Assembly (NCBI GenBank): GCA_964490215.1
Contig: CAZBAM010000002.1
Span: forward strand, 12,403-76,402
Origin: Candidatus Micrarchaeota archaeon
GTDB lineage: Archaea; Micrarchaeota; Micrarchaeia; Anstonellales; Bilamarchaeaceae
Reading direction: 5' to 3'
Length of the DNA: 64,000 bases
Made by a program: the position numbers and the translations under genes. Within the stretch, counting starts at the first letter, position 1. Every line of letters begins with the position of its first letter. Below, piece after piece: positions 1,723 through 30,320 of this stretch. A model generated the notes under the pieces. It saw only the letters and a program-made list of their open reading frames with translations, had not been told where the DNA came from and did no database searches.

Positions 1723-2703
1723 ATGGTGAATCTCCTTGTATCAGTGATGTCCCTGGCGCTCATCGCCTACCTCGTGGGCGTGGACAAAATCCTGGCCGTG
1801 CTCCTGAAAGCCAGGCCTGAGCTGCTGGCCGCTGCGCTCCTTGCCTATGCTTTTCTGAACGTCGTCATGTCCTACCGTATCAAGGTCGTGCTTGAAGGCA
1901 TCGGAGAACGGATTAGTGTGTGGCAGGCCGTCCCATCCAACCTGGCAGGCATGCTCGCATCGGATTTCACTCCGGCAAGGGCAGGATATTTCTTCACCGC
2001 CTTCTCCATATCCTCGCGCAATGGCATCGCCCTTGAAAAAACCATCCTGTCCATCTTCGGCCCGCAGATGTTTGATTTTCTCATCAAGGTCACCTGCGCA
2101 GGCGTCCTGCTGCTCATGCTGCTCTCCATGGTGGAAGTGGGCGACATGACACTCAACGCCGCGTTCCTCCTGGCCTTCCTGGCCACGATTCTTTTCGTGA
2201 GCGTCCTGGTGTTCCATCCCCCTCTTCTCGCACGGCTCGCCTCCCTGGAATCCATCCCGTTCGTGCCGTTCGCGTTCGCTTTCCTGCGCAGGATGCACAT
2301 CCATTCGGACAAGGTGCTGGCGCTGAAGGAGAAAATAATACTCATCACGTTCTCATCCTGGTTCATCAAGGGCGTGGAATGGTTCTTCCTCTCCCGTGCC
2401 ATAGGCATATCGCTGTCCGGGAATCCCGTCCAGGACCTGCTGTTCATCATGGTATTCCAGGGGGCGATAACGATAATCCAGTTCCTTCCCATCCCGACCC
2501 TCGCCGGTGCCGGTGCGAGCGAAGCCGGGTTCGCAGCCATACTCATCTTTTTCGGAATCCCCTTTGAAGTCGGAGTGACCTTTGGCTTCCTGACGCGTCT
2601 CACCATGATCACGGTGGACATATTCTCGCTGCCCGTGATCCTCGCCTATCTGCGCAGCCACAGCCTGGAGGGGATGCTGAAGGGGATAACAGGCGCGCAT
2701 TGA
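1723..2703 (+). CDS. Flippase-like membrane protein of the lysyl-phosphatidylglycerol-synthase TM-region/UPF0104 family (often partnered with glycosyltransferases)
   Basis: ORF 1702..2703 begins at TTG; first ATG at 1723 (MVNLLVSVMSLALIAYLVG...). Polytopic hydrophobic protein with the family's typical conserved R/K and GxxG features. Confidence 0.5.
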   Translation: MVNLLVSVMSLALIAYLVGVDKILAVLLKARPELLAAALLAYAFLNVVMSYRIKVVLEGIGERISVWQAVPSNLAGMLASDFTPARAGYFFTAFSISSRNGIALEKTILSIFGPQMFDFLIKVTCAGVLLLMLLSMVEVGDMTLNAAFLLAFLATILFVSVLVFHPPLLARLASLESIPFVPFAFAFLRRMHIHSDKVLALKEKIILITFSSWFIKGVEWFFLSRAIGISLSGNPVQDLLFIMVFQGAITIIQFLPIPTLAGAGASEAGFAAILIFFGIPFEVGVTFGFLTRLTMITVDIFSLPVILAYLRSHSLEGMLKGITGAH

Positions 2704-2722
2704 CGCCCCCTGAGGCGAGGCA

Positions 2723-2731
2723 TTTAAAATT
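2723..2731 (+). promoter_or_regulatory. TATA-box-like element upstream of the GT-C-like membrane protein gene
   Basis: tttaaaat about 25 nt upstream of ATG 2755 (leaderless-type spacing). Confidence 0.35.
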
Positions 2732-2754
2732 TGTCCCCAAAAATCAGGAATACA

Positions 2755-4596
2755 ATGACGCTGCCAAGGGAAAGCCTGCTCATTCTGTGCGAAATCGTCC
2801 TGATCTCGCTTACAGCCTCCTATTTCTACCAGAACGAGACCCTGTCGATGGGCGTGCTGTTCGCAGCTTACTTTTTCACGCTCTCGGCTTTGTATGTCGC
2901 GTCAAAGGCCGCATTCAGTCCAGGTGCAGGGAAGAAACCCCTGAACGACTGGGTGCTTTTTCTCATCGCCCCGGTCCTGCTCGTCACCATGCCGTCCCTG
3001 GGCCTGTTCTACGGCCTTGCCCGGTACATCCCCCTCGTATCGTTATTCCTGTTCGTTCAAATCTACGTGGGGATAAAGCTGGTGGAAGCCGCGGCCAGCC
3101 CCACAGGCAGCACCACGGTCAGGAAAACCGGCGTCGTGATTTCGGACCGTGCGCTCTGCATGTTCCTCTTCCTCGTCCTGCTTGCTGCAACCCTGTCGCG
3201 CTTCGTCTTCATTGACGCGGATTTCCTCAATTACGCCAGCATCAGGCAATACCAGACGATCCTCATCGCGAAAAACTTTTACCTGGACAAGATAGACCTC
3301 ATAAGCCCGCTGACCGATTACGCGAAGGAGTCAAACCGGGTTTTCACCCTCAATGGCCTGGAATTCCAGTTCCTCCCCCTAGCCAGCCAGCCCCTGCTGC
3401 ACCTTTTCGGCATGACGAACGCGTCGTTGAGGCTCGCCCCAGTCGTATTCTCGCTGCTTTCCCTCTCGCTCTTCTACGTCCTCCAACGGAAGCGTTTTGA
3501 AGGCCGGAATATGGCGGTCATCGCGACAATCCTGTTCTCCCTGTTCCCCCTGAATCTTTTCATCGGGCGGGCTTACCTGCCGGAAGGGCTGTCGGTCCTG
3601 TCCGTGCTCCTCTTCCTCTACTTTTACGGCAGGTTCAGGGAGTCATGCACGCTCTCGTCGGGCGCCCTCCTTTTCCTTTCCGAAACGCTGCTCTTCCTTT
3701 CCAAGCCGCCCCTGGTCACGCTCGTCGTTCCATTCGTACTCTATGAGCTTTTCATCGTCAGGAAAGCCGGGCTCCGTTTCCTGGCCATCTTCGTGGCTGC
3801 GGCTTTGGTGGACGGGGTGTATTACCTCCTGCAGATAGCCGCCTACAGCTACAACAACGGCAGTTCTGTCATCGGGGATTACATGCACCTCTCCAACCTG
3901 CTCGGCGCCGACTACTACCTTTATCTTTTCTACGCCGTGGCCATCCTCGTATCCTCGGCGTTCGTCCTCATCTTCTTTTTGAAAGGGCTCCGCCTGTCTT
4001 TTGACGAATGGCGGCGTTCGGGCCCGAAAGACGCAGACCCGTACGTGCTGCTCTTCCTCGGTGTCTGCCTGTACGCGCTCGTGTTCAGCGCAGGGACCTG
4101 GGGCAACACATATTACCTGGTCCTGTGGTCCGTGCCGCTTGCGGCCATTTCCGCCCGGGGTATGGAAGGCATCCGCCGTAACGACGTCCTCCTGGCGGTA
4201 GTCGTGCTTTTTATCGCGTTCGTCCTCCCGGCCAACGTCCGCCTGCTCAGCCCTGCAGGCACAGCGCCCGCAATCCTTTCCATTTCAGGGGCAGTGTCCT
4301 CGCTTGCGGCCAACGACAGTTATTTCCTCTACGGGGACTGCTACCCGGACAAGAATAACATGTGGCCCGAAACGGTGTACCTCTCGGGCAGGAAAGCGCT
4401 GTACGTGGGGCTGGAGAACACCTCCCTCGCTTCGGTGGAATGCCTGCTCAGGGAGAACGGCCTGCACGTTTACGAAGGCCCGCTGAGCGACGGTTATGAC
4501 GGGAACCGGAGCCGCATGGTGCTTGTGGCGACCTACCCCTCGGTCAACTGCAACACCACCTACGTCCTTTTCCTCAACCGCTCCACGGGCGGCTGA
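2755..4596 (+). CDS. Large polytopic membrane protein, GT-C-type glycosyltransferase-like (ArnT/PMT-like architecture), with a C-terminal extracytoplasmic domain containing NxS/T sequons
   Basis: ORF 2731..4596 begins at TTG; ATG at 2755 (MTLPRESLLILCEIVLISL...). TATA-like tttaaaat about 25 nt upstream. At least 12 predicted TM segments followed by a soluble C-terminus. Confidence 0.4.
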   Translation: MTLPRESLLILCEIVLISLTASYFYQNETLSMGVLFAAYFFTLSALYVASKAAFSPGAGKKPLNDWVLFLIAPVLLVTMPSLGLFYGLARYIPLVSLFLFVQIYVGIKLVEAAASPTGSTTVRKTGVVISDRALCMFLFLVLLAATLSRFVFIDADFLNYASIRQYQTILIAKNFYLDKIDLISPLTDYAKESNRVFTLNGLEFQFLPLASQPLLHLFGMTNASLRLAPVVFSLLSLSLFYVLQRKRFEGRNMAVIATILFSLFPLNLFIGRAYLPEGLSVLSVLLFLYFYGRFRESCTLSSGALLFLSETLLFLSKPPLVTLVVPFVLYELFIVRKAGLRFLAIFVAAALVDGVYYLLQIAAYSYNNGSSVIGDYMHLSNLLGADYYLYLFYAVAILVSSAFVLIFFLKGLRLSFDEWRRSGPKDADPYVLLFLGVCLYALVFSAGTWGNTYYLVLWSVPLAAISARGMEGIRRNDVLLAVVVLFIAFVLPANVRLLSPAGTAPAILSISGAVSSLAANDSYFLYGDCYPDKNNMWPETVYLSGRKALYVGLENTSLASVECLLRENGLHVYEGPLSDGYDGNRSRMVLVATYPSVNCNTTYVLFLNRSTGG

Positions 4597-4645
4597 CCCC
4601 GCCGTCCAGCACGATTTAAATATCCCCAGCAGCAAACCCCATATC

Positions 4646-5362
4646 ATGCCCCAGGTCAGCATTATACTGCCCACCCGGAACGAGGCGGAATGCATCACGA
4701 CCACCCTGACTTCCATAACGAGCCAGCTCGGGGCTGATGGCCTGGATTATGAAGTCATCGTAATGGACGACGAAAGCAAGGACGGCACCCAGGCGCTTGT
4801 AGAATCATTCTCAAAGAAAAACCCGGTCATCCGGCTCGTCCGGAGGAAGCCGCCATACGGCTTCGGGTATTCCATCCGGGAGGGCGTCGCACTGTCCCGC
4901 GGGAAATTGATAGTCGTGATGATGGCAGACCTTTCGGACGACCCTGCATTCGTCAAGGACATGTGGGCTAGGTTCAACGACGGCTACGACGTCGTGGTCG
5001 GCTCGCGGTTCATCAACGGCGCGAAAATATCCAATTACCCCCGCCTGAAATACCTCTCCAACCGGCTGTTCAACCTCTTCATCATGGCGTTCTTCCTCAC
5101 CAGCGTGAGGGACACCTCCAACAACTTCAAGGCGTTCGCAGCCTCCAAAATCCGGAAGATGTCATTCGAGTCCACGGGTTTTGAAATAGGCGCCGAGATG
5201 ATGCTCAGGATGCTCCTGGGCGGCGCCCGTGTCGTTGAGATTCCGGTGAGCTGCTCAGGCCGCACGAAGGGCACAGCGAAATTCAGGCTTTCCAATACCG
5301 CTTTAAAATATTTCCTCCTTTTCCTTAGGATGCTGAAGAGGCGCTTTTTGGTGGAAAAATGA
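4646..5362 (+). CDS. GT2 family glycosyltransferase, dolichyl-phosphate sugar synthase (Dpm1/AglJ-like)
   Basis: MPQVSIILPTRNEAECI...VIVMDDESKDGT...; classic GT-A DxD. Internal ATG at 4646 within ORF 4496..5362. Stop overlaps the next start. Confidence 0.65.
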   Translation: MPQVSIILPTRNEAECITTTLTSITSQLGADGLDYEVIVMDDESKDGTQALVESFSKKNPVIRLVRRKPPYGFGYSIREGVALSRGKLIVVMMADLSDDPAFVKDMWARFNDGYDVVVGSRFINGAKISNYPRLKYLSNRLFNLFIMAFFLTSVRDTSNNFKAFAASKIRKMSFESTGFEIGAEMMLRMLLGGARVVEIPVSCSGRTKGTAKFRLSNTALKYFLLFLRMLKRRFLVEK

Positions 5363-6573
5363 AGGTGTGTGTAGTAGGTATCGGACGCGTAGGCCTTCCG
5401 CTGGCCCTTTACCTCGCTTCAAAAGGCCTGGAATCCCGCGGCTTGGACATAGACGCGAAAAAGGTGGAGCTGCTGAAGAGCGGCAGGATGCCGTTCCCTG
5501 AGGACGGGGCAGCGCCCCTGCTGGCGAAGACGCTTGGCAAGTCCTTCTTCCCGACGACCGAATTCTCTGCGGTTTCCGGTGTTGACACCATCATCATGAC
5601 GCTCGGGACGCCGGTGGACGAGTTCCTCAACCCGGATTTCTCACAGATACATTCTTCCCTTGAAGCCCTCCTGCCCCACCTGCGCGAGGGCCAGCTGCTC
5701 ATCCTGCGGAGCACGGTCTCGCCGGGCTCCACCGAGCACATAAAAAATTACATTGAATCCAAAAGCTCCTACCGTATCGGCAGGAACTTTTACCTGGCCT
5801 TCTGCCCGGAGCGCATCGCGCAGGGCAAGGCCCTCAAGGAACTCGGCGAGCTCCCTGAAATAGTCGGGGGCATAGACGAGGCGAGCACGCGCAAGGCCAC
5901 GGCTTTCTTCAAGACCTTCAAGGACGAGGTGTATCCCACCACGGCAATCAATGCCGAGCTCACCAAGCTGTTCACGAACATGTACCGCTACATAAATTTC
6001 TCAATTGCGAACGAGTTCATGATAATCTCCGAGGAATGGGGGGCCAACATTTACGAGATAACCGACCTTGCCAACCGGAAATACCCGCGCGGCGGGCCGA
6101 GGCCGCCCGGGTTCGCCGCAGGCCCCTGCCTTTTCAAGGACGGCTTCTTCCTGCTGGAGAGCATGCCATTCCCTGACCTGATAACCGCCGCATGGAAGAT
6201 AAACGAGACCATCCCTGGCTACCTGGTCCAGAAGGCGAAGAAGCTGAAGGCCATAAAGGGCGCCAAATGCGCCATACTCGGGATGGCTTTCAAGGCGAAC
6301 AACGACGACGAGCGGGCGTCGCTCTCCCACAAGGTCAGGAAGCTGTTCCAGAAGGAGATGGCTGACGTGCACACGCACGACGTGTTCAGGGACGGCAAGG
6401 ACTTTGATGCCCAGGTCCGGGGCGCCGACTTCCTCGTCATCGCGACCGTGCACGACGAATACAGGAAGCCCTTTGAATATTACCGGAAGCTCATAAAGAA
6501 GGACGCGGTCGTGATAGATATATGGAACGTCTTCGGGAAAAACCGCGTGATTTTCAGGTGTTCTGATGGCTAA
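5359..6573 (+). CDS. Nucleotide-sugar dehydrogenase (UDP-glucose/UDP-ManNAc 6-dehydrogenase family)
   Basis: N-terminal Rossmann MKVCVVGIGRVGLPLALYLA; central and C-terminal UDPG_MGDP_dh-type domains; catalytic Cys region GPCLFKDG. Confidence 0.7.
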   Translation: MKVCVVGIGRVGLPLALYLASKGLESRGLDIDAKKVELLKSGRMPFPEDGAAPLLAKTLGKSFFPTTEFSAVSGVDTIIMTLGTPVDEFLNPDFSQIHSSLEALLPHLREGQLLILRSTVSPGSTEHIKNYIESKSSYRIGRNFYLAFCPERIAQGKALKELGELPEIVGGIDEASTRKATAFFKTFKDEVYPTTAINAELTKLFTNMYRYINFSIANEFMIISEEWGANIYEITDLANRKYPRGGPRPPGFAAGPCLFKDGFFLLESMPFPDLITAAWKINETIPGYLVQKAKKLKAIKGAKCAILGMAFKANNDDERASLSHKVRKLFQKEMADVHTHDVFRDGKDFDAQVRGADFLVIATVHDEYRKPFEYYRKLIKKDAVVIDIWNVFGKNRVIFRCSDG

Positions 6574-7534
6574 TGTCCTTGTTACCGGCGGAGCGGGTTT
6601 CATAGGGAGCGCAGTGGTCAACGAGCTGCTCAAGGCAGGCCATGACGTGACGGTCGTGGACAACCTGAGCAAGGGTGCCCAGACGAACCTGGACATGAAG
6701 AAGGTGACGTTCAAGCGCGCAGACCTGTGCGACGCCTCGCAGGTGTCCTCCCTCCTGGCCGACCAGGAATACTGCTTCCATTTCGCCGCACGCATCGGGG
6801 GCATAGGGTATTTCCACAAATACCCCGCTGAAATCCTCAGGGACAACACCCTGATGTACTCCAACCTGCTTGACGAGGCACTGCGGTCCAAGTCCTTCAG
6901 GAAGATGATATACATCTCGTCGTCCATGGTTTTTGAGAGGACGGACCATTTCCCCTCAAACGAAGAGGACGTGTGGAGCTCGCCGCCGCCGATAAGCCAT
7001 TACGGGTTCTCAAAGCTCGTCGGCGAGTACTATTCGGCAGCCTACCACGACCAATACGGCCTTTCATACTCAGTGTTCCGCCCGTTCAACGCCTACGGGC
7101 CAGGCGAATCACCTGACAACGAGCCGGGCATAGCCCACGTGATACCAGACCTGATAAAGAAGATTTATTTTGACAAGCAGTATCCCGTGGAGATATTCGG
7201 GGACGGGAACCAGGTGCGCTCCTACACCTACGTCACGGACCTGGCAGAAGCGGTCGCATCGCTCTCATTTGACAAGCGGACCGACAACGCGGCCTACAAC
7301 GTCGCCAACCCCCAGCCCGTTACCGTCCTGGAACTGCTCGACAAGATATGGAAGCTCTGCGGCCCGGCAGGCAAGCCGCTCAAGATCGCGCACCTCAAGC
7401 CGTTCAAGGACGACGTGAGGAGGCGGATACCGAGCGCGGACAAGGTCTTCTCGCTCGGCTGGAGGCCGAAGGTAAACCTGGACGAGGGCCTGAAAAGAAC
7501 CTTTGAATGGATAAAAGCCAAACAGTCTTCCTGA
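6566..7534 (+). CDS. NAD-dependent nucleotide-sugar epimerase/dehydratase (extended SDR)
   Basis: VTGGAGFIGS Rossmann motif, YxxxK (YGFSKLVGE). Start overlaps the upstream dehydrogenase stop. Confidence 0.65.
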   Translation: MANVLVTGGAGFIGSAVVNELLKAGHDVTVVDNLSKGAQTNLDMKKVTFKRADLCDASQVSSLLADQEYCFHFAARIGGIGYFHKYPAEILRDNTLMYSNLLDEALRSKSFRKMIYISSSMVFERTDHFPSNEEDVWSSPPPISHYGFSKLVGEYYSAAYHDQYGLSYSVFRPFNAYGPGESPDNEPGIAHVIPDLIKKIYFDKQYPVEIFGDGNQVRSYTYVTDLAEAVASLSFDKRTDNAAYNVANPQPVTVLELLDKIWKLCGPAGKPLKIAHLKPFKDDVRRRIPSADKVFSLGWRPKVNLDEGLKRTFEWIKAKQSS

Positions 7535-7542
7535 GCCGCATC

Positions 7543-9051
7543 TCACTGCGGGCCGCCCTGGCCAGCCTCCCTGCCTGGCGACGGCGGCATCGGTGCCTGT
7601 TGCGAAGCTCCCGTGGGCTCCTTCTGCCTCATTGCCCGCAGGATTTTGCATATGCCCCTGGTGACCGCGGCATTAACCATCTTGGTCGGACCGAGCGTCT
7701 TGCCTATGGTGATGAGCTTGCCCAGCTGGGACTCGCGCGTGCGCCTGTTGCCGTCCTCCTTCAGCCGCCTGAGTTCCTCGTCGCTCATATCCGTGAAGTT
7801 GATGAGAAGGTTCTGGCTCATCTCGCCCAGGCTCTCAAAATACGCGTCCTCGTCCGGTATCTTCCCTGCGGCCCTGGCCTGCTCGTAGAGCGGCGTGCCT
7901 GGATAGGCCGTGGTGAAGAAGAACTCTGTTGCGATGCCCAGTTCCTCGCAGAAGCGGACCGTCTCCTCAATGCTCTGGGGGGTCTCACCCGGGTATCCTA
8001 TCATGAACGATGGGTTTGCGAATATGCCCGCCCTCCTGGCGGCTATCATAGCCTTGTGGGCCATTTCCTTGGTCGCCATCTTATTCATGCTCTTGAGCAC
8101 GTCGTTGTTGGCTGACTCTATGCCATATGTCAGCTGGGCCACGCCGGCCTTCGCCAGCAGCTTCAGCAACGGCTCGTCCACGGTATTGACCCTGGCGGAT
8201 ATGTGAAAGTTCACGCCCAGATTTTCCTTTATCAGCCGGTTGCAGAACTCCTCCACCCTCGTCCTGTTCACCGTGAACAAGTCGTCCGAGAATGAGATAT
8301 GCTGCACCCGGTAGCGCTTCTTGAGCTCTTTTATCTCCTTCACTATGTTGTCCACCGAGCGCCAGCGGACGTTCCTGCCGAAGACCTTGAAGCAGTAGCG
8401 GCACTGGAACGGGCAGCCGCGGACCGTGGACACGTTTATGCCCCGCAGAGGCTTGAGAAAGTCAAGGAACATGGCGTGCTGGAGCGGGTAGTTCTCCACG
8501 TACTTCTCGGTAGGGAAAAGATCCCAGGCCGGGAACGGGATACTATCCAGATTCTGGATGAACGCCCGCGGCTTGTTTATGGCGACGCCGCCGTCCTTGG
8601 TCCTGAACGCGATGCCGTCTATTTTCGCGAGCGCCTCCTCGTCCCAGCCCTTCGCCAGCGCGTTGAAAAGCTCCACTGCAGTGGCTTCGCCTTCGTCTAT
8701 GACCGCTACGTCCGCGCCAACGTGGGTGACGGTCATTTTCGGTATCGCGGTCGCCAGGGAGTTTCCCACGACTATGGGCACGCCCGGCTTCTTCGCCCTG
8801 ATGAGCGGGATCAGCGTCCTCTTGAGGTACTTGTATCTCGTGATGAGGGCGCTTATGCCGACCGCGTCGTATTCCATGGTGCCAAGGAGGCGCGCCACTT
8901 CCTCAGGCGGATGACGGTTGCCCTCTATGTCGATTACCTTTATCTCGTGGCCGTCGTTCCTGAGCACTGCCGCGATGTAAGCCAGCCCGAGGGGAAAATA
9001 CGTCGGCAATTCCGATGTACGGTACTGCGGCTGTATGAGAAGAATTTTCAT
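7543..9051 (-). CDS. B12-binding-domain radical SAM enzyme (class B radical SAM; candidate sugar C-methyltransferase or epimerase)
   Basis: N-terminal cobalamin-binding-like domain (KILLIQPQY...GLAYIAAVL...); CxxxCxxC radical SAM motif (VRGCPFQCRYC). ORF starts at TTG 9057; first ATG at 9051. Confidence 0.65.
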   Translation of the reverse strand: MKILLIQPQYRTSELPTYFPLGLAYIAAVLRNDGHEIKVIDIEGNRHPPEEVARLLGTMEYDAVGISALITRYKYLKRTLIPLIRAKKPGVPIVVGNSLATAIPKMTVTHVGADVAVIDEGEATAVELFNALAKGWDEEALAKIDGIAFRTKDGGVAINKPRAFIQNLDSIPFPAWDLFPTEKYVENYPLQHAMFLDFLKPLRGINVSTVRGCPFQCRYCFKVFGRNVRWRSVDNIVKEIKELKKRYRVQHISFSDDLFTVNRTRVEEFCNRLIKENLGVNFHISARVNTVDEPLLKLLAKAGVAQLTYGIESANNDVLKSMNKMATKEMAHKAMIAARRAGIFANPSFMIGYPGETPQSIEETVRFCEELGIATEFFFTTAYPGTPLYEQARAAGKIPDEDAYFESLGEMSQNLLINFTDMSDEELRRLKEDGNRRTRESQLGKLITIGKTLGPTKMVNAAVTRGICKILRAMRQKEPTGASQQAPMPPSPGREAGQGGPQ

Positions 9052-9153
9052 CCGCAATCACTCAATGTTGCAACGTGCTTTATTACGCCTGAGCTTCCCC
9101 GATTTATATATCGTCTTAACGCTATTTAATTCTTGCGCACCATCTCTTCTCTG

Positions 9154-10065
9154 ATGAGAGCAGTGGTCACAGGCGGAGCCGGTTTCATAGGCTCGCACCT
9201 GGTGGATAAGCTCGTTTCCGAAGGCGCCGGCGTGACGGTAATCGATGACCTGTCCTGCGGGAAGATGGAGAACGTCAGCCCGAAGGCGAAGTTCGCGCGC
9301 AAGGACGTCAGGCACGACATTTCAGATGAATTGCGCGGCATTGACACCGTGTTCCATTTCGCCGCAGACCCGGACGTCCGCTCCAGCGCCGCACTGCCGG
9401 CCAGGACGTTCAGCCAGAACGTCGCAGGCACCTTCGCCGTGCTGGAGTCGTGCAGGAAGGCTGACGTCAGGCGCGTCGTTTTCGCTTCCACCTCCACTGT
9501 GTATGGCGAGGCCGGCGTCATCCCCACCCCTGAGACGTGCCCCTGCCTGCCCATAAGCAACTACGGCGCGTCCAAGCTCGCATGCGAGGCGTATCTTTCA
9601 GCGTATTGCGGCTCCTACGGCATGAAGGGGACGTCGCTGCGCTTCGCGAACATATTCGGCGAAAGGAGCACCCACGGAGTCATGCTTGACTTCTACCGCA
9701 AGCTGAAGAAGGACCCGAACAGGCTGGAAATCCTCGGCGACGGGAAGCAGGACAAGTCCTACCTCCACGTTTCCGACTGCGTGTCAGCGACGCTCACCGC
9801 GTGGAAAAGGCAGAAAGCGGATTATGACGTGTTCAACGTGGGCAGCAGGGCCAAGGTGGACGTGGACGAACTCGCAGGGCTGATGTGCCGCCTCATGAAG
9901 GCGAAGCCCAAATTCTCACACACCGGCACGCTGCGCGGCTGGACCGGCGACGTGCGCCTGATGCTCCTCAGCACGGAAAAGATAGGGCGGCTTGGCTGGA
10001 CTGAGCAGGTTTCGTTTGAAAAAGGCGTGAAAAAATACCTGGTGTGGTTGGAGAAGAATGGCTAA
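9154..10065 (+). CDS. NAD-dependent nucleotide-sugar epimerase/dehydratase (GalE-like SDR)
   Basis: MRAVVTGGAGFIGSHLVDKL; YGASKLACE (YxxxK). ATG at 9154 inside ORF 9133..10065 (TTG). Confidence 0.65.
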   Translation: MRAVVTGGAGFIGSHLVDKLVSEGAGVTVIDDLSCGKMENVSPKAKFARKDVRHDISDELRGIDTVFHFAADPDVRSSAALPARTFSQNVAGTFAVLESCRKADVRRVVFASTSTVYGEAGVIPTPETCPCLPISNYGASKLACEAYLSAYCGSYGMKGTSLRFANIFGERSTHGVMLDFYRKLKKDPNRLEILGDGKQDKSYLHVSDCVSATLTAWKRQKADYDVFNVGSRAKVDVDELAGLMCRLMKAKPKFSHTGTLRGWTGDVRLMLLSTEKIGRLGWTEQVSFEKGVKKYLVWLEKNG

Positions 10066-11071
10066 GGATCTCATGCTGCTCGCCGGCGCGCATCCGGTGC
10101 ACCGCAAATTCGGCGAATCATGCGATGCGACCACGAAGCTCAGGGACCTCGCGGCCAAGGGCCAGCCCGCGCCGCTCAAGGCGCTCAACCTGCTGCGCTC
10201 CTCGCTTTCGGTGCCGTCCGGCTACGGCTACGTCGTATGCGAATCGTGCTACTACTACCCGGCGCTGAAACGGCGCATGGGCCTGCTCGGAAAGACGAAG
10301 ATAATCAACATGGGCTGCGGGCCGGTGTTCTACCACCTCCTGAGCAGCCGCATATCCGGCCTTGAGAGGAAAATGCTGCTGGAGCTGCTGAAGGACGTGG
10401 ACGGGCATCTCGTGTATGGCACCTACGGCATGGAGCTTCTCGCGCGCCTCAAGCAGGTCAAGCCCGCAGGCATAATCTACCCGTTCGTGGGCGACGCTTC
10501 CATGGCAGCGCTGTCCAGAGTGAAGCCTGCCCTCAGCTCGCATTCCATCGCAATCATCGCCACCAGCGACCCGTACAACAAGGGCCTGGATGCGCTTTTC
10601 CAGGCCATGGAAACAGTCCATGAGCGTTACAAGGACGCAAAACTTGAAATCGTCACCCGCATGGAGCCGGAAGAGGTTGAGGCAGTGGCCGGCTTCAACC
10701 CGGAATTCATGTCCGTCTCAAGGAACGTGCCGTCCATCGCCGACGTTTTCGCACGCTCAGCGCTTTACGTCCAGCCCACGCGGGGCGACATGTTCCCGGT
10801 GGCGTGCGTGGAAGCAATGGCTGCCGGCGTGCCCTGCATCGTTTCAGAAGAGAACGGCATGAAGGAATTCACTGCCAGGCTGGACGGCGGCATGGTGGTG
10901 CCAGTTGATTCCGGCCGCATCGCCAGCGCGATAACGGGATATTTCAACAAGCCGCAAAAAGAGAAGGAGTCGCTTTCCGCACGCTCGCGCTCGCTCGCCT
11001 CGTTCTTCAACGAAAAGGACATGGTCGCACTGTTCAGGAAAGAACTCGCAGCGCTTGAAAGGCGCATCTGA
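10058..11071 (+). CDS. Glycosyltransferase family 4 (GT-B, group 1)
   Basis: C-terminal EX7E-type region (VACVEAMAAGVPCIVSEENG), typical of retaining GT4 enzymes. Confidence 0.6.
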   Translation: MAKDLMLLAGAHPVHRKFGESCDATTKLRDLAAKGQPAPLKALNLLRSSLSVPSGYGYVVCESCYYYPALKRRMGLLGKTKIINMGCGPVFYHLLSSRISGLERKMLLELLKDVDGHLVYGTYGMELLARLKQVKPAGIIYPFVGDASMAALSRVKPALSSHSIAIIATSDPYNKGLDALFQAMETVHERYKDAKLEIVTRMEPEEVEAVAGFNPEFMSVSRNVPSIADVFARSALYVQPTRGDMFPVACVEAMAAGVPCIVSEENGMKEFTARLDGGMVVPVDSGRIASAITGYFNKPQKEKESLSARSRSLASFFNEKDMVALFRKELAALERRI

Positions 11072-11261: not shown

Positions 11262-12179
11262 TTAGAGCATCTGGCCTACGCTTTCCGCGAAGCTTATCCT
11301 GGGCTTCCACCCGGTGTCCTTCGTTATCTTCGTGGTGCTTCCGTAGGCGTCCGGCACCTCGTTTTTCCTGATGCGCGCCGGGTCGGCCTTTATCTCCGCG
11401 CGGACGCCCGCCTGTTTCATCATCAGTTCGAGCAGCTCGCCCATGCGGTGCGACTTGCCGGTGCAGACGTTGTAGATTTCGCCGGATTTCCCGCGCTCGG
11501 CTATTGCGAGGAACGCGCGCGAAGCGTCCTCCATGTCTATGAAGTCGCGTTTCGCCTCAAGGTTGCCGACGAGTACCGGGCCCTGCCCCTTGCCGTTCGC
11601 TATTTCAGCCACCTGTTTCGCGAAGGAGCCTGGCGCCATGCGTTCAGGCACCCCTCGCCCGAGCGGGTTGAACAGCCGTCCCGCAGTCACCTCGCAGCCC
11701 AGCGCTGTATAGCCTGCTGCAATCGCCGTGCGCGCGGCCATGGACATGCCGTAGCGCGTGATCGGCTTCGGCATCCTCGTTTCCCTGAGCGGCAGGTCCT
11801 TTTTCTCCACCGCGCCGTATTCGGCCGCGGAGCCGATTACGAAGACGCGGGGCCGTTTCCCGCCTTCCTGCAGCTTCACCACGGCCTCAAGCACTGCCAC
11901 GGCGGTCTGCACGTTCGCCCTCAACAGTTCGTTCCAGTCTGACGCGCCCGGGGCGCCTGCGAAATGGAATATGAAATCCGGCCTGGCCTCGGCGACGAGC
12001 GACGCAGCGGCAGCGAAGTCCGCGACATCCGCCTTCCTGTATTCAAAGCCCGGGGCGCTGAGCGTGCACTCGCCCTGCCCTGCCCCCACGATGCGCGAGC
12101 CAGGCCGTTCCTTCACCAGCAGGTCCACGAAATTCCTGCCCACGAACCCGCACGCACCAGTCACCAGATAATCAGCCAT
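11262..12179 (-). CDS. SDR-family NDP-6-deoxyhexose 4-reductase, Rmd-like (GDP-4-keto-6-deoxy-D-mannose reductase-like)
   Basis: MADYLVTGACGFVGRNF...; C-terminal IYNVCTGKSHRMGELLE...DTGWKPRI mirrors Rmd architecture. Confidence 0.45.
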   Translation of the reverse strand: MADYLVTGACGFVGRNFVDLLVKERPGSRIVGAGQGECTLSAPGFEYRKADVADFAAAASLVAEARPDFIFHFAGAPGASDWNELLRANVQTAVAVLEAVVKLQEGGKRPRVFVIGSAAEYGAVEKKDLPLRETRMPKPITRYGMSMAARTAIAAGYTALGCEVTAGRLFNPLGRGVPERMAPGSFAKQVAEIANGKGQGPVLVGNLEAKRDFIDMEDASRAFLAIAERGKSGEIYNVCTGKSHRMGELLELMMKQAGVRAEIKADPARIRKNEVPDAYGSTTKITKDTGWKPRISFAESVGQML

Positions 12180-12207
12180 TCAAACGCCCTTCCTCGTACA
12201 ATTCGTC

Positions 12208-12927
12208 TTACTCCTTGAGATATTTCTCCGGGTGCTCTTCCATCTCCTTCTGCGCCAGCTCGTAGTCGTCCGGCCTGCCTATGTCCAGCCACTCGCATCT
12301 GTCCCTGAAGCAGCAGACTGTCTCGCCCTTTTTCCTGAGCCTGAGCATCAGGTCAGGCATGCCCAGCGCCTCGCCTTTCTTTATGCTGGCCAGCGCCTTC
12401 CTGTTGAGCGCGTTCACGCCCATGCTGACCAGGAACGGCATCGTGGGCTTCTCAACATAATCCTTCAGCTTCATATCCCCGTCCGCGGTTATGACGCCGT
12501 AGTCTATCTTCTGCACGCGCTCAAACACGCCTATGGTGGCCGTCGCTTTCCTGTCCTTGTGGAATTTCATCAGCTTCCCGTAATCAAGCGTGGTGAGGAT
12601 GTCGCCGTTTATAACCAGGAAGTCCTCGTCAAGGCGTATGCCCGCGCCTTCCATGATGCCGAGCGCGCCGGCGGTGTTGAGCGGTGTCTCCTCCCGCACG
12701 TATCTTATCTTCACGCCGAGATTTTCACCGTCGCCGAAATATGCCTCTATCAGCCCTGCGAGGTGGCCGGTGGATATGACGATGTCCACGAACCCGGCCT
12801 TCTTCAGCTGGTGGATGACGATTTCAAGTATGGGCTTATCGCCCAATGGAACGAGCGGCTTCGGGAACGTGGCGGTGTACGGCCTCAGCCTCGTCCCCTT
12901 CCCACCCGCGAGTATTATCGCCTGCAT
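12208..12927 (-). CDS. Sugar-1-phosphate nucleotidyltransferase (mannose-1-P guanylyltransferase / glucose-1-P cytidylyltransferase-like)
   Basis: MQAIILAGGKGTRLRPYT...KPLVPLGDKPIL, the classic NTP-transferase signature. Confidence 0.65.
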   Translation of the reverse strand: MQAIILAGGKGTRLRPYTATFPKPLVPLGDKPILEIVIHQLKKAGFVDIVISTGHLAGLIEAYFGDGENLGVKIRYVREETPLNTAGALGIMEGAGIRLDEDFLVINGDILTTLDYGKLMKFHKDRKATATIGVFERVQKIDYGVITADGDMKLKDYVEKPTMPFLVSMGVNALNRKALASIKKGEALGMPDLMLRLRKKGETVCCFRDRCEWLDIGRPDDYELAQKEMEEHPEKYLKE

Positions 12928-12992
12928 GACAAATCAACTCCATTCGCCCGTTCGCGCTTCCCTGCGCCTTCCACGGGCACTATGCACGGACA

Positions 12993-13985
12993 CTAGATGT
13001 TGTATATGTCCGGCTTGTAGCGCGCCAAATTCGCCTTTATGTGCGCCACGGTTTCAGCGACGCCTTTCTCAAACGTGTATTCCGGCTTCCAGCCTGCGAG
13101 TTCCGCTATCTTTTTGTTGCCGCACACGAGCCGCATGACCTCGCTCCTGTCAGGCCGCACGCGCTGCCCTTCCTTCACGATAGCGGCCGCGCTGCCGGTG
13201 AGCTTCTTCGCCAGCTCCACGACCTCGCCTATGGTCCTGCCCTGGCCTGTTCCGGAATTGACCACGGTTCCGACCGTCTTCTGCGATTCAGCCACCCTGA
13301 TGAACGCCTTCACCGTGTCCTTGACGTAGGTGAAGTCCCTCACCGGCTCCAGCGAGCCGAGCGATATCTCTTTTTTCCCGGCCACCATCTGCGTTATTAT
13401 CGCAGGAATCACCGCACGCGCGGACTGGCGCGGGCCGAAGGTGTTGAACGGCCTGAGCGTGGCGACCGGCAGGTTGAACGAGGTGTAGAAGCTCTCAGCC
13501 ACCATGTCCGCGCCTATCTTGCTCGCGGAATAGGGCGACTGCCCCTGCAGCGGGTGGTTCTCGTCTATGGGGACGTATCTCGCAGTGCCGTAAACCTCGC
13601 TCGTGGAGGTGTGCACGACCTTTGCCACCTTCTCCTCAAGGCATGCCTGCATGACGTTGAGCGTGCCTTTCACGTTCGTGTCAACGAAGTCCCCGGGTGC
13701 GATGTATGAATAGGGTATGGCTATAAGCGCGGCGAGGTGGAACACTGTGTCGCAGCCCTTCACGGCCCTGCGCACGAAGAACGGGTCGCGCACGTCGCCT
13801 GCCACCACGTCCAGCGCGTCCCGCGTTTCCTTCGGCAGCAGTTCCAGGTTGCCCCAGTTGTTGCCTGAGTTGTAGTGCACCATCGCCCTGACGTCGGCCC
13901 CGAGCCTCACGAGTTCCTCTGTGAGATGGGAGCCGATGAAGCCGCCTGAGCCGGTGACAAGGACCTTCCTGGATTTCCAGTTCAT
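12993..13985 (-). CDS. NDP-sugar 4,6-dehydratase/epimerase (extended SDR)
   Basis: KVLVTGSGGFIGSHL, TSTSEVYG, YSASKIGAD (YxxxK). Confidence 0.6.
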   Translation of the reverse strand: MNWKSRKVLVTGSGGFIGSHLTEELVRLGADVRAMVHYNSGNNWGNLELLPKETRDALDVVAGDVRDPFFVRRAVKGCDTVFHLAALIAIPYSYIAPGDFVDTNVKGTLNVMQACLEEKVAKVVHTSTSEVYGTARYVPIDENHPLQGQSPYSASKIGADMVAESFYTSFNLPVATLRPFNTFGPRQSARAVIPAIITQMVAGKKEISLGSLEPVRDFTYVKDTVKAFIRVAESQKTVGTVVNSGTGQGRTIGEVVELAKKLTGSAAAIVKEGQRVRPDRSEVMRLVCGNKKIAELAGWKPEYTFEKGVAETVAHIKANLARYKPDIYNI

Positions 13986-14038
13986 GGTTCTTACTATCCT
14001 CGTTAGTATTTAAAACAGCGAGCGGGCAAGTGTTTTCC

Positions 14039-17390: not shown

Positions 17391-18713
17391 TCAGTGCGTC
17401 AGCCGCTTGAAGCCGGTGTGGGCAACCGGCCCCTTCAGTAGCTTTTCAACGTTTCCGGAGTCAGCAGCTTTCTTCATGATGCCGAACACCTCCCCGGCAT
17501 GCTCAAGATAGTCCCGCACGTCATCGTCGTGATGGCTGTAGGAGACGTACACGCCCTTCTTGGCAGCTAGATACCCGCGCTCAAGCATCTCCTGCGTGAA
17601 CAACGTCGCCAGCGCCTGGGAAGCGTCCCCGTATTTCAGGTCAAACGCCACCAGCGGCTCAAAATCAAGCATGACCGTGAGGTCAAGGCCCTTCTCAGCG
17701 GCGAGCTTCTTCCATCCCTCGCCTATCATCCTGCCTATTTTCACCAGGTGCGCAGGCACGTTCTCCCTTTCCAGCTTCGCTATGGTCGCAAGCGCAGCCA
17801 CCGGCCCGACGCGCTCGGTCCAGTAGGTGCTGCTGATGAAGGATTCCTGAGCCACGTCCATGACCTCGCCCCTTCCTATTATCGCAGCCATGGGATACCC
17901 GTTGCTCATGGCCTTGCCATAGACGGCCAGGTCAGGCTTCATGCCCAGCAGCGCGTGCGCGCCACCGACGTTCTTCCTCCACCCGACCGTGACCTCGTCG
18001 GCTATGAGCACGATGCCGTTGTCCTTCGCAATCTTCTGAACCTTAGGCAGGAAACCCGCCTGCGGGAGATGGTGCAGCATGGGCTCCATGACTATGGTGC
18101 CGACCTCGCCCCTGTTCTTCTCTATTATCGCTTCCAGCTGTTCGGCTTTGTTGTACTCAAAAGGTATGGACGTCCCCTTCAGCCCGCGCGGCACGCCCAG
18201 CGGCTTCAGCCCGGGCAGCAGGTGCCCGTCAAGCCCCTTTTCGTCAGCGAGGTTCGCGGAAAGGTACCAATCCGACCAGCCGTGATATCCACAAAAAGCC
18301 ACTTTGTCCTTCCGTGTGAACGCCCTGGCAATCCTCACCGCAATTGCCAGCGCCTCGCCGGCTGTGCGCGCGTACCTCACCCCCCCTGCCCAGCGGTTGA
18401 GCGAAATGAGCTTCTCGGCAAGTTCAACCTCCTCAGGGCAGTTCAGGGTGCATATGCTGCCGTCCCGGACCGCCTTCACGACCGCCTCGTTCACGTCGTC
18501 GTCCGCGTAGCCGAGTATGGCAGCGCCCACGCTCATTATGCTCATGTCCTTGTACCTTTTCCCGTCAAGGTCCCATACGTCTATGCCCTTTGCCCTGGAA
18601 TAATAAGACGGCCACTGGTCAGGGAGGAACATCTCCGAGCGCTTTGAAAGGAGCTGGCTGCCCCCGGGTATGATTTTCTTCGCCTTGTTCCACAATTCGG
18701 TTCCCTTGCCCAT
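17391..18713 (-). CDS. Class III (GSA-aminomutase-like) PLP-dependent aminotransferase
   Basis: MGKGTELWNKAKKIIPGGSQLLSK... matches the N-terminus of the glutamate-1-semialdehyde aminotransferase family; internal ATG at 18713 (ORF extends to 18785). Confidence 0.65.
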   Translation of the reverse strand: MGKGTELWNKAKKIIPGGSQLLSKRSEMFLPDQWPSYYSRAKGIDVWDLDGKRYKDMSIMSVGAAILGYADDDVNEAVVKAVRDGSICTLNCPEEVELAEKLISLNRWAGGVRYARTAGEALAIAVRIARAFTRKDKVAFCGYHGWSDWYLSANLADEKGLDGHLLPGLKPLGVPRGLKGTSIPFEYNKAEQLEAIIEKNRGEVGTIVMEPMLHHLPQAGFLPKVQKIAKDNGIVLIADEVTVGWRKNVGGAHALLGMKPDLAVYGKAMSNGYPMAAIIGRGEVMDVAQESFISSTYWTERVGPVAALATIAKLERENVPAHLVKIGRMIGEGWKKLAAEKGLDLTVMLDFEPLVAFDLKYGDASQALATLFTQEMLERGYLAAKKGVYVSYSHHDDDVRDYLEHAGEVFGIMKKAADSGNVEKLLKGPVAHTGFKRLTH

Positions 18714-18823
18714 CGCTACACCTTTCCCTTCGTGTCTGTCGTTATCTGTCGTTGGGCAGAAGTAATTTAAGCCCTTTCTGGACATTACCCCTATCAGCGA
18801 TTTCTGAATGAGGTCAATGTCTT

Positions 18824-26547: not shown

Positions 26548-26600
26548 GTTTCAGCATCAACCCTGTTAGCCCTGTTTGACGATGACTGTTTGGCGATGAG

Positions 26601-27809: not shown

Positions 27810-27876
27810 CAAAAAAAACAGGCGGCAGGACGCCGTAAGGAAACAGGCGAAGAGTTGCTGGTAAGGTGCTGATTCC

Positions 27877-28683
27877 ATGGCTGTTGGCGCGATAATACAG
27901 GCAAGGATGGGCTCCACGAGGCTTCCGGGCAAGATCATGAAGACCGTCCTCGGCAAGCCGCTGCTGGCGCTCATGCTGGAGCGCGTGAAGCTGGCCCGCT
28001 CGCTGGACGTAGTGGTGGTCGCGATACCTGACACGCCTGAGAACGACGGCCTCGCAGCGCTCTGCGGGCAGTGCGGGGTGCAGGTGTTCAGGGGAAGCGA
28101 GAACGACGTGCTGTCGAGATACTACCTGGCCGCGAAGAAGTTCTCCCTTGACCCGGTGGTCAGGCTGACGTCCGACTGCCCGCTCATCGACCCGGCGCTC
28201 GTGGACCACGCTGTTTTCCTGTACCGGAAGGGCGGCTACGACTACTTCACGAACGCCATAGAGCGGACCTATCCGGACGGCCAGGACATAGAGATAATCT
28301 CCTTCCGGGCGCTTGAAACCGCGTACCAGCGGGCGACTGACACCCACGACCGGGAGCACGTGACGACATACATAGGCGTCAGGGACAAAGAGTTCAGGCA
28401 CGGCAACTTCCGCTACAAGAAAGACCTTTCAAAACTCAGGTGGACCGTTGATTATCCCGCGGATTTTGATTTCGTGGCCGCGGTCTTCAGGGAGCTTTAT
28501 CCGTCAAAAGGCGCGGCTTTCTCCATGGAGGACGTCCTGGAGCTGCTGGCCCGCAAGCCCGGGATAGGCAGGATAAACGAGAACGTCACAGGCAAGGACA
28601 ACCTCAAGATAGCGAAGGAAAGGCGGAAGAAGGGGATGCGCGGAACCGCGGCCGGCGGGAAACGGGAAACCGGAAACCAATAA
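27877..28683 (+). CDS. pseF: CMP-nonulosonic acid synthetase (acylneuraminate cytidylyltransferase family, PseF/NeuA-like)
   Basis: [23 protein letters not shown], the CTP-transferase signature. Confidence 0.65.
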
Positions 28684-29291: not shown

Positions 29292-29296
29292 CTGCC

Positions 29297-30313: not shown

Positions 30314-30320
30314 TGATTCC

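What the first reader, a model, noticed from the sequence alone, without database searches (positions are those of the whole stretch)
7543..9051. B12-binding radical SAM enzyme embedded among nucleotide-sugar dehydrogenase and epimerase genes
Class B radical SAM enzymes in sugar clusters typically catalyse C-methylation or unusual epimerisation/dehydration of sugars (as in aminoglycoside and fosfomycin pathways). Its position between a UDP-sugar dehydrogenase/epimerase pair and another epimerase/GT4 suggests a rare C-branched or methylated sugar in this glycan.
Basis: partly seen in the sequence, partly recalled or inferred. Interest (0 to 1): 0.5.

Follow-up and report, generated by a model that had tools for sequence, protein, structure and literature searches.

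The report
Uncharacterised B12-type radical SAM glycan enzyme
The gene is a real B12-domain radical SAM enzyme in the surface-sugar locus of a tiny DPANN archaeon, and it belongs to an unstudied enzyme branch found next to sialic-acid-like (nonulosonic acid) sugar genes in many microbes, so it probably makes an undescribed sugar modification.

Summary
Window 7543-9051 (minus strand) encodes a 502-aa protein with an N-terminal B12-binding domain (PF02310), a radical SAM domain (PF04055) and a CxxxCxxC motif. It is under purifying selection (dN/dS about 0.1). No curated family claims it: BchE and HpnJ are the best models but score at 30-40% of their cut-offs. AprD4, a sugar 1,2-diol dehydratase, is the closest solved structure. 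The host is a DPANN archaeon, shown by RFC, XPD and proteasome genes. The gene sits in a glycan locus of about 36 kb that includes a nonulosonic-acid (NulO) gene set. It is transcribed away from both flanking operons. Relatives closest to the window protein carry a NeuB synthase nearby in 21 of 40 loci, against 3 of 40 for more distant B12 radical SAM genes. In the NJ-tree clade the counts are 24/47 against 0/33. The sugar link is therefore supported and narrowed to NulO glycans. The chemistry is unproven: C-methylation is most likely, and AprD4-like dehydration is the main rival. I found no paper describing such an enzyme.

The parts
7543..9051 (-). Class B (B12-binding domain) radical SAM gene, 502 aa including the stop codon
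   Evidence: ORF and translation. Pfam PF02310 + PF04055. AF2 model with pLDDT 90.9. dN/dS about 0.1.
8668..9000 (-). N-terminal Rossmann-type B12-binding domain (residues 18-128)
   Evidence: PF02310, 70.5 bits. The model has five beta strands: 2-7, 36-41, 63-67, 93-96 and 115-117. A profile of this domain alone hits CysS, OxsB, TsrM, TokK, MgmA and a B12 mutase, but not AprD4.
7948..8430 (-). Radical SAM core domain (residues 208-368) with CxxxCxxC at nt 8392-8415
   Evidence: PF04055, 102.2 bits. C213, C217 and C220 are invariant in 44 homologues.
9052..9153 (.). Divergent intergenic region of 102 bp shared with the SDR-GT4 operon. It holds two conserved TATA-like boxes (TTAAATA at 9123-9129; GATATATAAAT at 9102-9112) and a GTGAT Shine-Dalgarno-like element before the radical SAM ATG.
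   Evidence: Alignment with the same region of L003 and L004. Promoter function is inferred. The bacterial sigma-70 scan found nothing.
9154..10065 (+). Extended SDR, 303 aa, 4-epimerase-like (STSTVYG ... YGASK). It is the conserved divergent partner.
   Evidence: Pfam Epimerase, 177.7 bits. Motifs. Orthologues are 76/72/63% identical in L003/L004/L005.
10058..11071 (+). GT4 glycosyltransferase, overlapping the SDR by 8 bp (same operon)
   Evidence: PF13692 and PF00534. Orthologues are 80/56/43% identical in L003/L004/L005.
1723..7534 (+). Convergent five-gene operon: flippase-like LPG_synthase_TM protein, PMT_2 GT-C transferase, AglJ-like GT2 (polyprenyl/dolichyl-phosphate sugar synthase type), NDP-sugar dehydrogenase, and an SDR. 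Its stop lies 8 bp from the radical SAM stop.
   Evidence: It is absent next to the radical SAM gene in L003 and L004 and present in L005.
11262..13985 (-). LegB-type NAD-dependent 4,6-dehydratase (12993-13985), sugar-1-P nucleotidyltransferase (12208-12927), and an SDR that lacks the catalytic Lys (11262-12179)
   Evidence: TIGR04180, 469.8 bits against a cut-off of 475. PF00483. YGMSM in place of YxxxK.
17391..19942 (.). Class III aminotransferase (17391-18785, minus strand), divergent from a NeuB-family nonulosonic acid synthase (18824-19942, plus strand)
   Evidence: PF00202 and PF03102, 235 bits. NeuB_NnaB 280 bits and PseI 234 bits, both below their cut-offs.
24745..28683 (+). PseG-like hydrolase fused to GNAT, PseC-like DegT aminotransferase, and a CTP_transf_3 cytidylyltransferase. 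Together with NeuB these complete the NulO gene set.

Best explanation
The gene encodes a cytoplasmic class B radical SAM enzyme with an N-terminal cobalamin-type Rossmann domain and a [4Fe-4S]/SAM barrel. It tailors a sugar of the cell-surface glycan made by this roughly 36-kb locus of a DPANN archaeon. It belongs to an uncharacterised branch of the superfamily that travels with nonulosonic-acid (pseudaminic/legionaminic-type) biosynthesis genes in bacteria and archaea. Shown here: the domain architecture, the cluster motif, purifying selection, the conserved glycan/NulO neighbourhood and the conserved divergent promoter. Inferred mechanism: the reduced cluster cleaves SAM to a 5'-deoxyadenosyl radical. 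This radical abstracts a hydrogen from an unactivated carbon of a nucleotide-activated sugar, a NulO intermediate, or its N-acyl group. The substrate radical then takes a methyl group from methylcobalamin, which a second SAM regenerates. This gives a C-methylated sugar before the unit is flipped outward. My estimates: sugar/NulO-pathway substrate about 0.8; C-methylation as the chemistry about 0.45.
For: Architecture and motif. The N-terminal domain resembles true cobalamin binders: the domain-only profile hits CysS, OxsB, TsrM, TokK, MgmA and a B12 mutase. Glycan context is seen in every annotated relative at 41-100% identity. In L089 the gene lies inside a NulO operon, between the 4,6-dehydratase (4-bp overlap) and the DegT aminotransferase. 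In L007, L088 and L091 it overlaps the downstream Wzx flippase gene by 4 bp. NeuB lies within the fetched flanks in 21/40 loci most similar to the window protein against 3/40 less similar loci (p 1.7e-5). By NJ clade the counts are 24/47 against 0/33 among loci from the same scan. NeuB is usually less than 5 kb away and on the same strand. The window itself carries NeuB, PseC-like, PseG/GNAT-like, CMP-transferase and LegB-type genes. The radical SAM/SDR/GT4 trio and its two-TATA intergenic region are conserved in L003 and L004; in L005 the three genes are present but not arranged divergently. Prior for methylation: every class B group with a characterised member contains C-methyltransferases (PMC12931638).
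Against: There are no biochemical data for any member. The closest solved structure by both sequence and fold is AprD4, a cobalamin-independent sugar diol dehydratase. The Trp that sits under the corrin in the radical methylases TokK and CysS aligns with Thr71 here; the neighbouring Leu69 is hydrophobic, so this test is ambiguous. Methylases and non-methylases cannot be told apart by sequence. In the window NeuB is 9.8 kb away, and L003 to L005 show no NeuB in the fetched flanks. No single fixed neighbour exists across the family. The window has no cobalamin riboswitch or corrinoid transport gene. From general knowledge, not tested here, DPANN archaea usually cannot make cobalamin.
Confidence: 0.45

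Rival explanations
1. The enzyme has the same substrates (a nucleotide sugar or NulO intermediate) but does not methylate. One version is an AprD4-like radical 1,2-diol dehydration to a keto-deoxy sugar, which the divergently encoded SDR then reduces; the net result is deoxygenation, as with AprD4/AprD3. Other versions are radical oxidation, epimerisation or ring rearrangement, as in OxsB, HpnJ or BchE, with cobalamin absent or acting as an electron sink.
For: AprD4 is the top hit by phmmer (E 3e-22), by family profile (E 1e-41) and by Foldseek (TM 0.68-0.76). An SDR is the conserved divergent partner. The best curated HMMs are the non-methylating BchE and HpnJ. Thr71 replaces the TokK/CysS Trp. 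Non-methylating members lie in the same large group as methylases.
Against: AprD4 matches only the radical SAM half (profile positions 160-400), and the AprD4 model scores 95.8 against a cut-off of 500. The N-terminal domain matches genuine cobalamin binders instead. The SDR has a 4-epimerase-type motif set and is a generic neighbour in sugar loci. The SDR-GT4 pairing is limited to the closest DPANN clade.
Confidence: 0.3
2. The substrate is not a sugar. The enzyme modifies a lipid (dolichol/polyprenol carrier or membrane lipid), a protein or a peptide, and it merely resides in a variable glycan island.
For: Sub-threshold hits to lipid and RiPP class B models: rSAM_ladder_B12 150/360 and ApyD 159/750. 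Immediate neighbours vary between loci. Polyprenyl/dolichyl-phosphate-type genes (GT2, GT-C, flippase-like) flank the gene.
Against: The clade-specific NeuB association (0/33 in other class B clades) is hard to explain without a NulO or sugar role. In L089 the gene sits in-operon between NulO pathway enzymes. No precursor-peptide or lipid-synthesis genes were seen in the window.
Confidence: 0.12
3. It is an orthologue of BchE (anaerobic Mg-protoporphyrin cyclase) or HpnJ (hopanoid cyclitol ether synthesis), as JGI automatic names for some relatives suggest.
For: These are the top NCBIfam models. JGI labels some relatives 'anaerobic magnesium-protoporphyrin IX monomethyl ester cyclase'.
Against: The scores are 189.2 against a cut-off of 481.35 and 174.2 against 577.6. 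Ten diverse clade members likewise all fall below cut-off. The host is a DPANN archaeon and the window has no bch or hpn genes. Even the Heliobacterium chlorum member lies next to NeuB and LegB-type genes.
Confidence: 0.02

Closest known systems
AprD4 (radical SAM 1,2-diol dehydratase of apramycin biosynthesis, PDB 6FD2)
   Same: It is the closest solved structure by sequence and fold. It acts on a sugar (paromamine). It has the same two-domain layout and works with a partner reductase.
   Different: Only the radical SAM half aligns. The NF033070 model scores 95.8 against a cut-off of 500. According to PMC12931638, the AprD4 N-terminal domain does not bind cobalamin, whereas the domain here matches cobalamin-binding relatives. 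AprD4 belongs to an antibiotic pathway in actinomycetes, not a surface glycan.
BchE and HpnJ (non-methylating class B radical SAM enzymes)
   Same: They are the best-scoring curated HMMs and align over about 400 residues. HpnJ also rearranges a sugar moiety; that point is from my own knowledge of the family.
   Different: Scores are 30-40% of the cut-offs. There is no pigment or hopanoid gene context, and the host is an archaeon.
GenK, GenD1 and Fom3 type class B C-methyltransferases
   Same: They are the functional model for the proposed reaction: cobalamin-dependent radical methylation of an unactivated carbon of an aminosugar, or of a cytidylylated substrate in the case of Fom3. This comparison rests on established knowledge and the list in PMC12931638.
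   Different: No sequence-level membership was shown here. Related methylase models (PhpK, Sden_1168, HpnR, KedN5) all score far below cut-off. Those enzymes belong to secondary metabolism, not cell-surface NulO glycans.
Structurally characterised class I B12 radical SAM enzymes (TsrM, TokK, CysS, MgmA/QCMT, OxsB)
   Same: They share an N-terminal five-stranded Rossmann domain followed by the radical SAM barrel. All are found by the family profile and by Foldseek.
   Different: Identity is 17-23%. The family lacks the SCYVWN Trp of TokK and CysS and the Arg69 insertion of TsrM. It has a short helical C-terminal region instead of their large extra domains.

Membership tests
Class B (B12-binding domain) radical SAM superfamily | Radical SAM core (PF04055) with a CxxxCxxC [4Fe-4S] motif | tested here: met
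   PF04055, 102.2 bits. C213/C217/C220 are invariant in 44 homologues.
Class B (B12-binding domain) radical SAM superfamily | Rossmann-type B12-binding domain (PF02310) N-terminal to the radical SAM core | tested here: met
   PF02310, 70.5 bits. The model has a five-stranded Rossmann fold. The domain profile hits CysS, OxsB, TsrM, TokK, MgmA and B12 mutase 2YXB.
Class B (B12-binding domain) radical SAM superfamily | Actual binding and use of cobalamin | not testable with these tools
   This needs purified protein. No cobalamin riboswitch or corrinoid transporter was seen in the window.
BchE (TIGR02026) | Score at or above the curated cut-off of 481.35 bits | tested here: not met
   189.2 bits. 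Ten clade members score 142-180 bits or give no hit.
BchE (TIGR02026) | Bacteriochlorophyll biosynthesis context in a phototroph | tested here: not met
   The host is a DPANN archaeon. The window holds glycan genes only.
HpnJ (TIGR03471) | Score at or above the curated cut-off of 577.6 bits, with hopanoid (shc/hpn) neighbours | tested here: not met
   174.2 bits. No hopanoid genes appear among the annotated window ORFs.
AprD4 family diol dehydratase (NF033070) | Score at or above the curated cut-off of 500 bits over the full length | tested here: not met
   95.8 bits, residues 168-409 only. The family profile aligns with AprD4 only over positions 160-400.
AprD4 family diol dehydratase (NF033070) | Dedicated NAD(P)H reductase partner (AprD3-like) | tested here: inconclusive
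   A conserved divergent SDR exists, but it has generic 4-epimerase-type motifs. No AprD3 sequence was available for comparison.
Class B radical C-methyltransferases (TokK/CysS/GenK/Fom3 type) | Hydrophobic residue beneath the corrin (TokK W76, CysS equivalent) | tested here: inconclusive
   TokK W76 and the CysS Trp align with Thr71. OxsB N186 aligns with Leu69, which is hydrophobic and conserved. The rule itself rests on few structures.
Class B radical C-methyltransferases (TokK/CysS/GenK/Fom3 type) | Membership of a curated methylase family | tested here: not met
   PhpK 146/600, Sden_1168 150/575, MgmA-type 119/360, HpnR 91/650, KedN5 73/700. GenK and Fom3 themselves were not tested.
Class B radical C-methyltransferases (TokK/CysS/GenK/Fom3 type) | Two SAM consumed per turnover, giving 5'-deoxyadenosine, SAH and a methylated product | not testable with these tools
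   This is a biochemical assay.
Nonulosonic acid (NulO) biosynthesis locus (context of the gene) | NeuB-family synthase, CMP-NulO-type cytidylyltransferase, 4,6-dehydratase, aminotransferase and N-acetyltransferase/hydrolase in one locus | tested here: met
   PF03102 235 bits, PF02348, LegB-type 469.8 bits (cut-off 475), DegT 395 bits, PseG-like + GNAT. The individual equivalog cut-offs (PseI, PseC, PseG, NeuB) are not reached, so the NulO type is undetermined.

The most novel reading that the evidence does not exclude
A whole clade of cobalamin-type radical SAM enzymes, spread across bacteria and archaea, installs a carbon-level modification on nonulosonic acids or their 6-deoxy-hexosamine precursors. 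The modification could be C-methylation or chain extension giving a 'higher' ulosonic acid, or a radical deoxygenation. Either would define a class of sialic-acid-like sugars not yet described. In this genome-reduced DPANN archaeon the step would also tie surface-glycan identity to corrinoid scavenged from a host or community.
Probability: 0.3. Interest if true: 0.75.

Novelty: new variant of a known kind. Interest (0 to 1): 0.5.

Why it matters
Nonulosonic acids decorate flagella, S-layers, capsules and LPS, and they govern recognition by hosts, phages and immune systems. Their known diversity comes from stereochemistry and from N- and O-substituents. [quoted passage not shown] For DPANN biology, a 36-kb glycan locus is a large investment for a small genome. 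Dependence on a cofactor these organisms normally cannot make would also be a concrete metabolic link to their partners. The clade has at least one member in a cultured organism (Heliobacterium chlorum DSM 3682, locus L073), so the idea can be tested.

Tried and rejected
1. Assignment to a curated family. Thirty-four NCBIfam models hit the protein, all far below cut-off, and the same holds for ten diverse clade members. BchE, HpnJ, ApyD, ladderane-type, PhpK and AprD4 membership are rejected.

2. Fused domains as a functional clue. Relatives of about 800 aa (P0031, P0042, P0043, P0074) carry a 340-aa C-terminal extension with a GGFGRGEGS...NDYD motif, which looks like a nucleotidyltransferase. 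It has no Pfam hit even at E = 1 and no stand-alone homologue in the window or in 91 loci.

3. A single universal neighbour. A Pfam census of +/-3 genes in 15 further loci found only a mix of GT4, CTP_transf_3, methyltransferases, DegT, GT2 and GNAT, and no fixed partner.

4. My first greedy gene callers mis-called genes in this GC-rich window. I switched to tblastn presence/absence and to precomputed gene tables.

5. No cobalamin riboswitch was found in the window. The bacterial promoter and terminator scan was uninformative, because the host is archaeal.

6. Five literature searches for a B12 radical SAM enzyme in polysaccharide or NulO biosynthesis found none. The two papers that mention both terms concern unrelated SPASM-type or HutW genes.

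7. The lower-axial-residue test for methylase versus non-methylase was ambiguous.

8. The genome scan did not recover the window's own species.
Full report
**Observation.** The finding's coordinates hold one intact ORF on the minus strand. The ATG is at 9051, an alternative in-frame TTG lies at 9057, and the stop is at 7543-7545, giving 502 aa. Pfam places a B12-binding domain (PF02310, residues 18-128, 70.5 bits) ahead of a radical SAM domain (PF04055, residues 208-368, 102.2 bits). The cluster motif C213-x3-C217-x2-C220 can be read directly in the sequence and is invariant in an alignment of 44 homologues. Other invariant positions include the EGE triplet at 120-122, R211-G212, C270, G310/E312 and G352/E356. 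Codon comparison with three relatives gives dN/dS of 0.11-0.16, so the gene is functional. It is convergent with the dehydrogenase/SDR operon, with the two stop codons 8 bp apart. It is divergent from the SDR-GT4 operon across a 102-bp spacer.

**The protein.** No curated family claims it. Of 34 NCBIfam hits, the best are BchE (189.2 bits, cut-off 481), HpnJ (174.2 / 577.6), ApyD (159 / 750), the 'ladderane' lipid enzyme (150 / 360) and the P-methylases Sden_1168 and PhpK (about 150 / 575-600). AprD4 scores 95.8 / 500. An AlphaFold2 model built from the family alignment is confident (pLDDT 90.9, pTM 0.89). It shows a five-stranded Rossmann domain, the radical SAM barrel and a helical C-terminal region, with a disordered tail at 482-502.

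The nearest solved structure is AprD4, the radical SAM 1,2-diol dehydratase that acts on the sugar paromamine. This holds by phmmer, by family profile and by Foldseek. TsrM, MgmA (9CCB), OxsB, CysS and TokK follow. AprD4 aligns only over the radical SAM half (profile positions 160-400). A profile of the N-terminal domain alone recovers five cobalamin-binding radical SAM structures and a B12 mutase, but not AprD4. I therefore regard the N-terminal domain as a genuine cobalamin-type domain, although binding itself cannot be tested here.

A 2026 review states that methylating and non-methylating members cannot be separated by sequence. It suggests that radical methylases put a hydrophobic residue under the corrin (PMC12931638). 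In this protein the TokK/CysS Trp aligns with Thr71 and OxsB Asn186 aligns with the conserved Leu69. That test is ambiguous.

**The organism.** The window is archaeal. It encodes an RFC large subunit, an XPD helicase, an intein- and LAGLIDADG-containing helicase, a proteasome alpha subunit and a translin-like protein. The RFC protein is 93% identical to one from a MAG labelled 'Candidatus ainarchaeum sp.'. Its other named matches (55-67% identical) are from Micrarchaeota or Bilamarchaeum, which places the window in the DPANN archaea (Nanobdellati).

**The locus.** The glycan locus runs from about 1 kb to about 36 kb and contains the following units.
- A Dol-P/polyprenyl-P-sugar type operon: a flippase-like protein, a PMT_2 GT-C transferase, an AglJ-like GT2, a dehydrogenase and an SDR.
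- The radical SAM gene.
- The 4-epimerase-like SDR and the GT4.
- A LegB-type 4,6-dehydratase (469.8 bits against a cut-off of 475) with a nucleotidyltransferase.
- A class III aminotransferase divergent from a NeuB-family synthase.
- RmlB- and RmlA-type genes.
- A PseG-like/GNAT fusion, a PseC-like aminotransferase and a CMP-type cytidylyltransferase.
- GmhA-like, PfkB kinase and GT9 heptose genes.
- A Wzx flippase.

The window therefore carries a full nonulosonic-acid (NulO) gene set. The individual equivalog cut-offs are not reached, so the NulO type is undetermined.

**Close relatives.** Only four relatives exceed 50% identity (86, 79, 67 and 55%). A large set at about 40-47% comes from Omnitrophota, Elusimicrobia, Cloacimonetes, Fermentibacteria and other uncultivated lineages. 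All eleven annotated contigs place the gene in glycan clusters.

In the closest clade the trio of radical SAM gene, SDR (303 aa) and GT4 is conserved. Identities in L003/L004/L005 are 86/79/67% for the radical SAM protein, 76/72/63% for the SDR and 80/56/43% for the GT4. The divergent spacer keeps two TATA-like boxes (TTAAATA and GATATATAAAT) and a GTGAT element before the ATG, while the surrounding bases drift. I read this as a shared bidirectional archaeal promoter region; that reading is an inference.

Further out, the gene lies inside a NulO operon in L089, between the 4,6-dehydratase (4-bp overlap) and the DegT aminotransferase. It overlaps the downstream Wzx gene by 4 bp in L007, L088 and L091. 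In L090 it sits next to a Wzt ABC transporter.

**Family-level test.** A scan of one genome per species returned 80 loci at 29-42% identity. I used tblastn with the window's proteins against all loci. NeuB is present in 29 loci, usually less than 5 kb from the radical SAM gene, and on the same strand in 23 of the 29.

An NJ tree of 127 B12 radical SAM ORFs shows that NeuB-linked loci concentrate in the clade that contains the window protein. The counts are 30/57 loci against 0/33 in other clades. Restricted to loci from the same scan they are 24/47 against 0/33. Restricted to loci of at least 15 kb they are 22/34 against 0/22. Flank lengths are similar in the two groups.

I delimited that clade after seeing the labels, so I repeated the test without a tree. 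Ranking the 80 scan loci by bit score to the window protein gives 21/40 with NeuB in the top half and 3/40 in the bottom half (p = 1.7e-5). LegB-type dehydratase homologues follow the same pattern (31/57 against 6/33), whereas a generic GT2 does not (11/57 against 6/33). The other class B clades act as an internal control. The association is therefore with NulO pathways specifically, not with sugar genes in general. Caveats: the tree has no support values, gene presence was scored by tblastn, and many contigs are short.

**Mechanism.** The domains, the motif, selection and the NulO/glycan neighbourhood are shown. The rest is inferred. I take the enzyme to be cytoplasmic, acting on a nucleotide-activated sugar, a NulO intermediate or its N-acyl group before export. 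The in-operon positions between pathway enzymes and next to Wzx fit this.

My best guess for the chemistry is cobalamin-dependent radical C-methylation, at about 0.45. The main reasons are that every class B group with a characterised member contains C-methyltransferases and that the N-terminal domain looks like a true cobalamin domain.

The main rival, at about 0.3, is non-methylating radical chemistry on the same substrates. The leading version is AprD4-like diol dehydration followed by reduction by the adjacent SDR. A non-sugar substrate has about 0.12, and BchE/HpnJ orthology about 0.02.

**Comparison and novelty.** The protein is a member of the class B radical SAM superfamily by every testable feature. 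It fails the membership test of every curated subfamily I could test, and ten diverse members of its clade fail as well. Five literature searches and a 2026 review of the field gave no example of a B12 radical SAM enzyme tied to polysaccharide or NulO biosynthesis. That library is incomplete, so this is absence in what I could search, not proof. I classify the finding as a new variant of a known kind: a known enzyme type in a new and conserved biological setting, with unknown chemistry. Interest is moderate at 0.5. It is a good lead for enzymology and glycobiology, but nothing here contradicts current understanding.

Noticed in passing
window 38650-39375, 55872-63052: The window is archaeal (DPANN, Micrarchaeota/Iainarchaeota-like). 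It encodes a proteasome alpha subunit, an XPD helicase, an RFC large subunit (93% identical to a 'Candidatus ainarchaeum sp.' MAG protein) and a translin-like protein.
   Followed up: yes
window 59594-63052 (-): A 1152-aa DEAD/ResIII helicase is interrupted by an intein with a LAGLIDADG homing endonuclease domain. GC content falls from about 0.58 to 0.48-0.49 over 60-64 kb.
   Followed up: no
window 11262-12179 (-): This 305-aa extended SDR in the LegB-type operon has YGMSM where the catalytic YxxxK should be, so the Lys is replaced by Met. It may be catalytically altered or inactive. Orthologues are present in L003 (79%) and L004 (51%).
   Followed up: partly
window 28698-31950: A GmhA-like SIS protein, a PfkB-type kinase, a 164-aa ORF and a GT9 heptosyltransferase form a heptose route with an LPS-core-type transferase, which is unusual in an archaeon. 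L003 and L004 carry a GHMP-kinase/SIS/HAD/NTP-transferase heptose set instead.
   Followed up: no
window 1723-7534 (+): This five-gene operon (flippase-like LPG_synthase_TM, PMT_2 GT-C transferase, AglJ-like GT2, NDP-sugar dehydrogenase, SDR) looks like a lipid-phosphate-sugar route for adding a sugar outside the cell. In outline it resembles Haloferax AglD/AglR/AglS or bacterial Arn; that comparison is from memory.
   Followed up: partly
window 49979-50050 (+): Rfam finds a tRNA here (36.8 bits), but ARAGORN reported no tRNA anywhere in the window.
   Followed up: no
L090 8001-10397; proteins P0031, P0042, P0043, P0074: These family members of about 800 aa carry a 340-aa C-terminal extension with a GGFGRGEGS...NDYD motif (Pol-beta nucleotidyltransferase-like). 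It has no Pfam match and no stand-alone homologue in the fetched loci. In L090 the gene follows a Wzm/Wzt ABC transporter and precedes a 1922-aa multi-GT protein.
   Followed up: partly
L088 (Omnitrophota) 1394-14365; L091 8001-17416: Single NulO/glycan clusters carry three or four B12 radical SAM paralogues: four in L088 and three in L091. This suggests several radical tailoring steps on one glycan.
   Followed up: partly
L050, L058, L063, L067: Tandem arrays of six or seven B12 radical SAM paralogues occur in loci from an uncultured bacterium, a Deltaproteobacteria MAG and others. They belong to a different clade of the NJ tree that has no NeuB nearby. Their function is unknown.
   Followed up: no
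window 46849-48516 (-) and 48119-49582 (+): The phosphoglucomutase-family ORF and the glutamine synthetase ORF overlap by about 400 bp as listed. Most likely the TTG start of the PGM ORF is over-extended.
   Followed up: no
L073 5274-6659 (Heliobacterium chlorum DSM 3682, NZ_JACVHF010000006.1): A cultured phototroph carries a member of the NulO-associated clade (31% identity). NeuB lies 3.9 kb away and a LegB-type dehydratase (59% identical to the window's) lies in the same fetched locus. It scores only 141.6 bits on the BchE model, so it is not BchE. It offers an experimental handle.
   Followed up: partly
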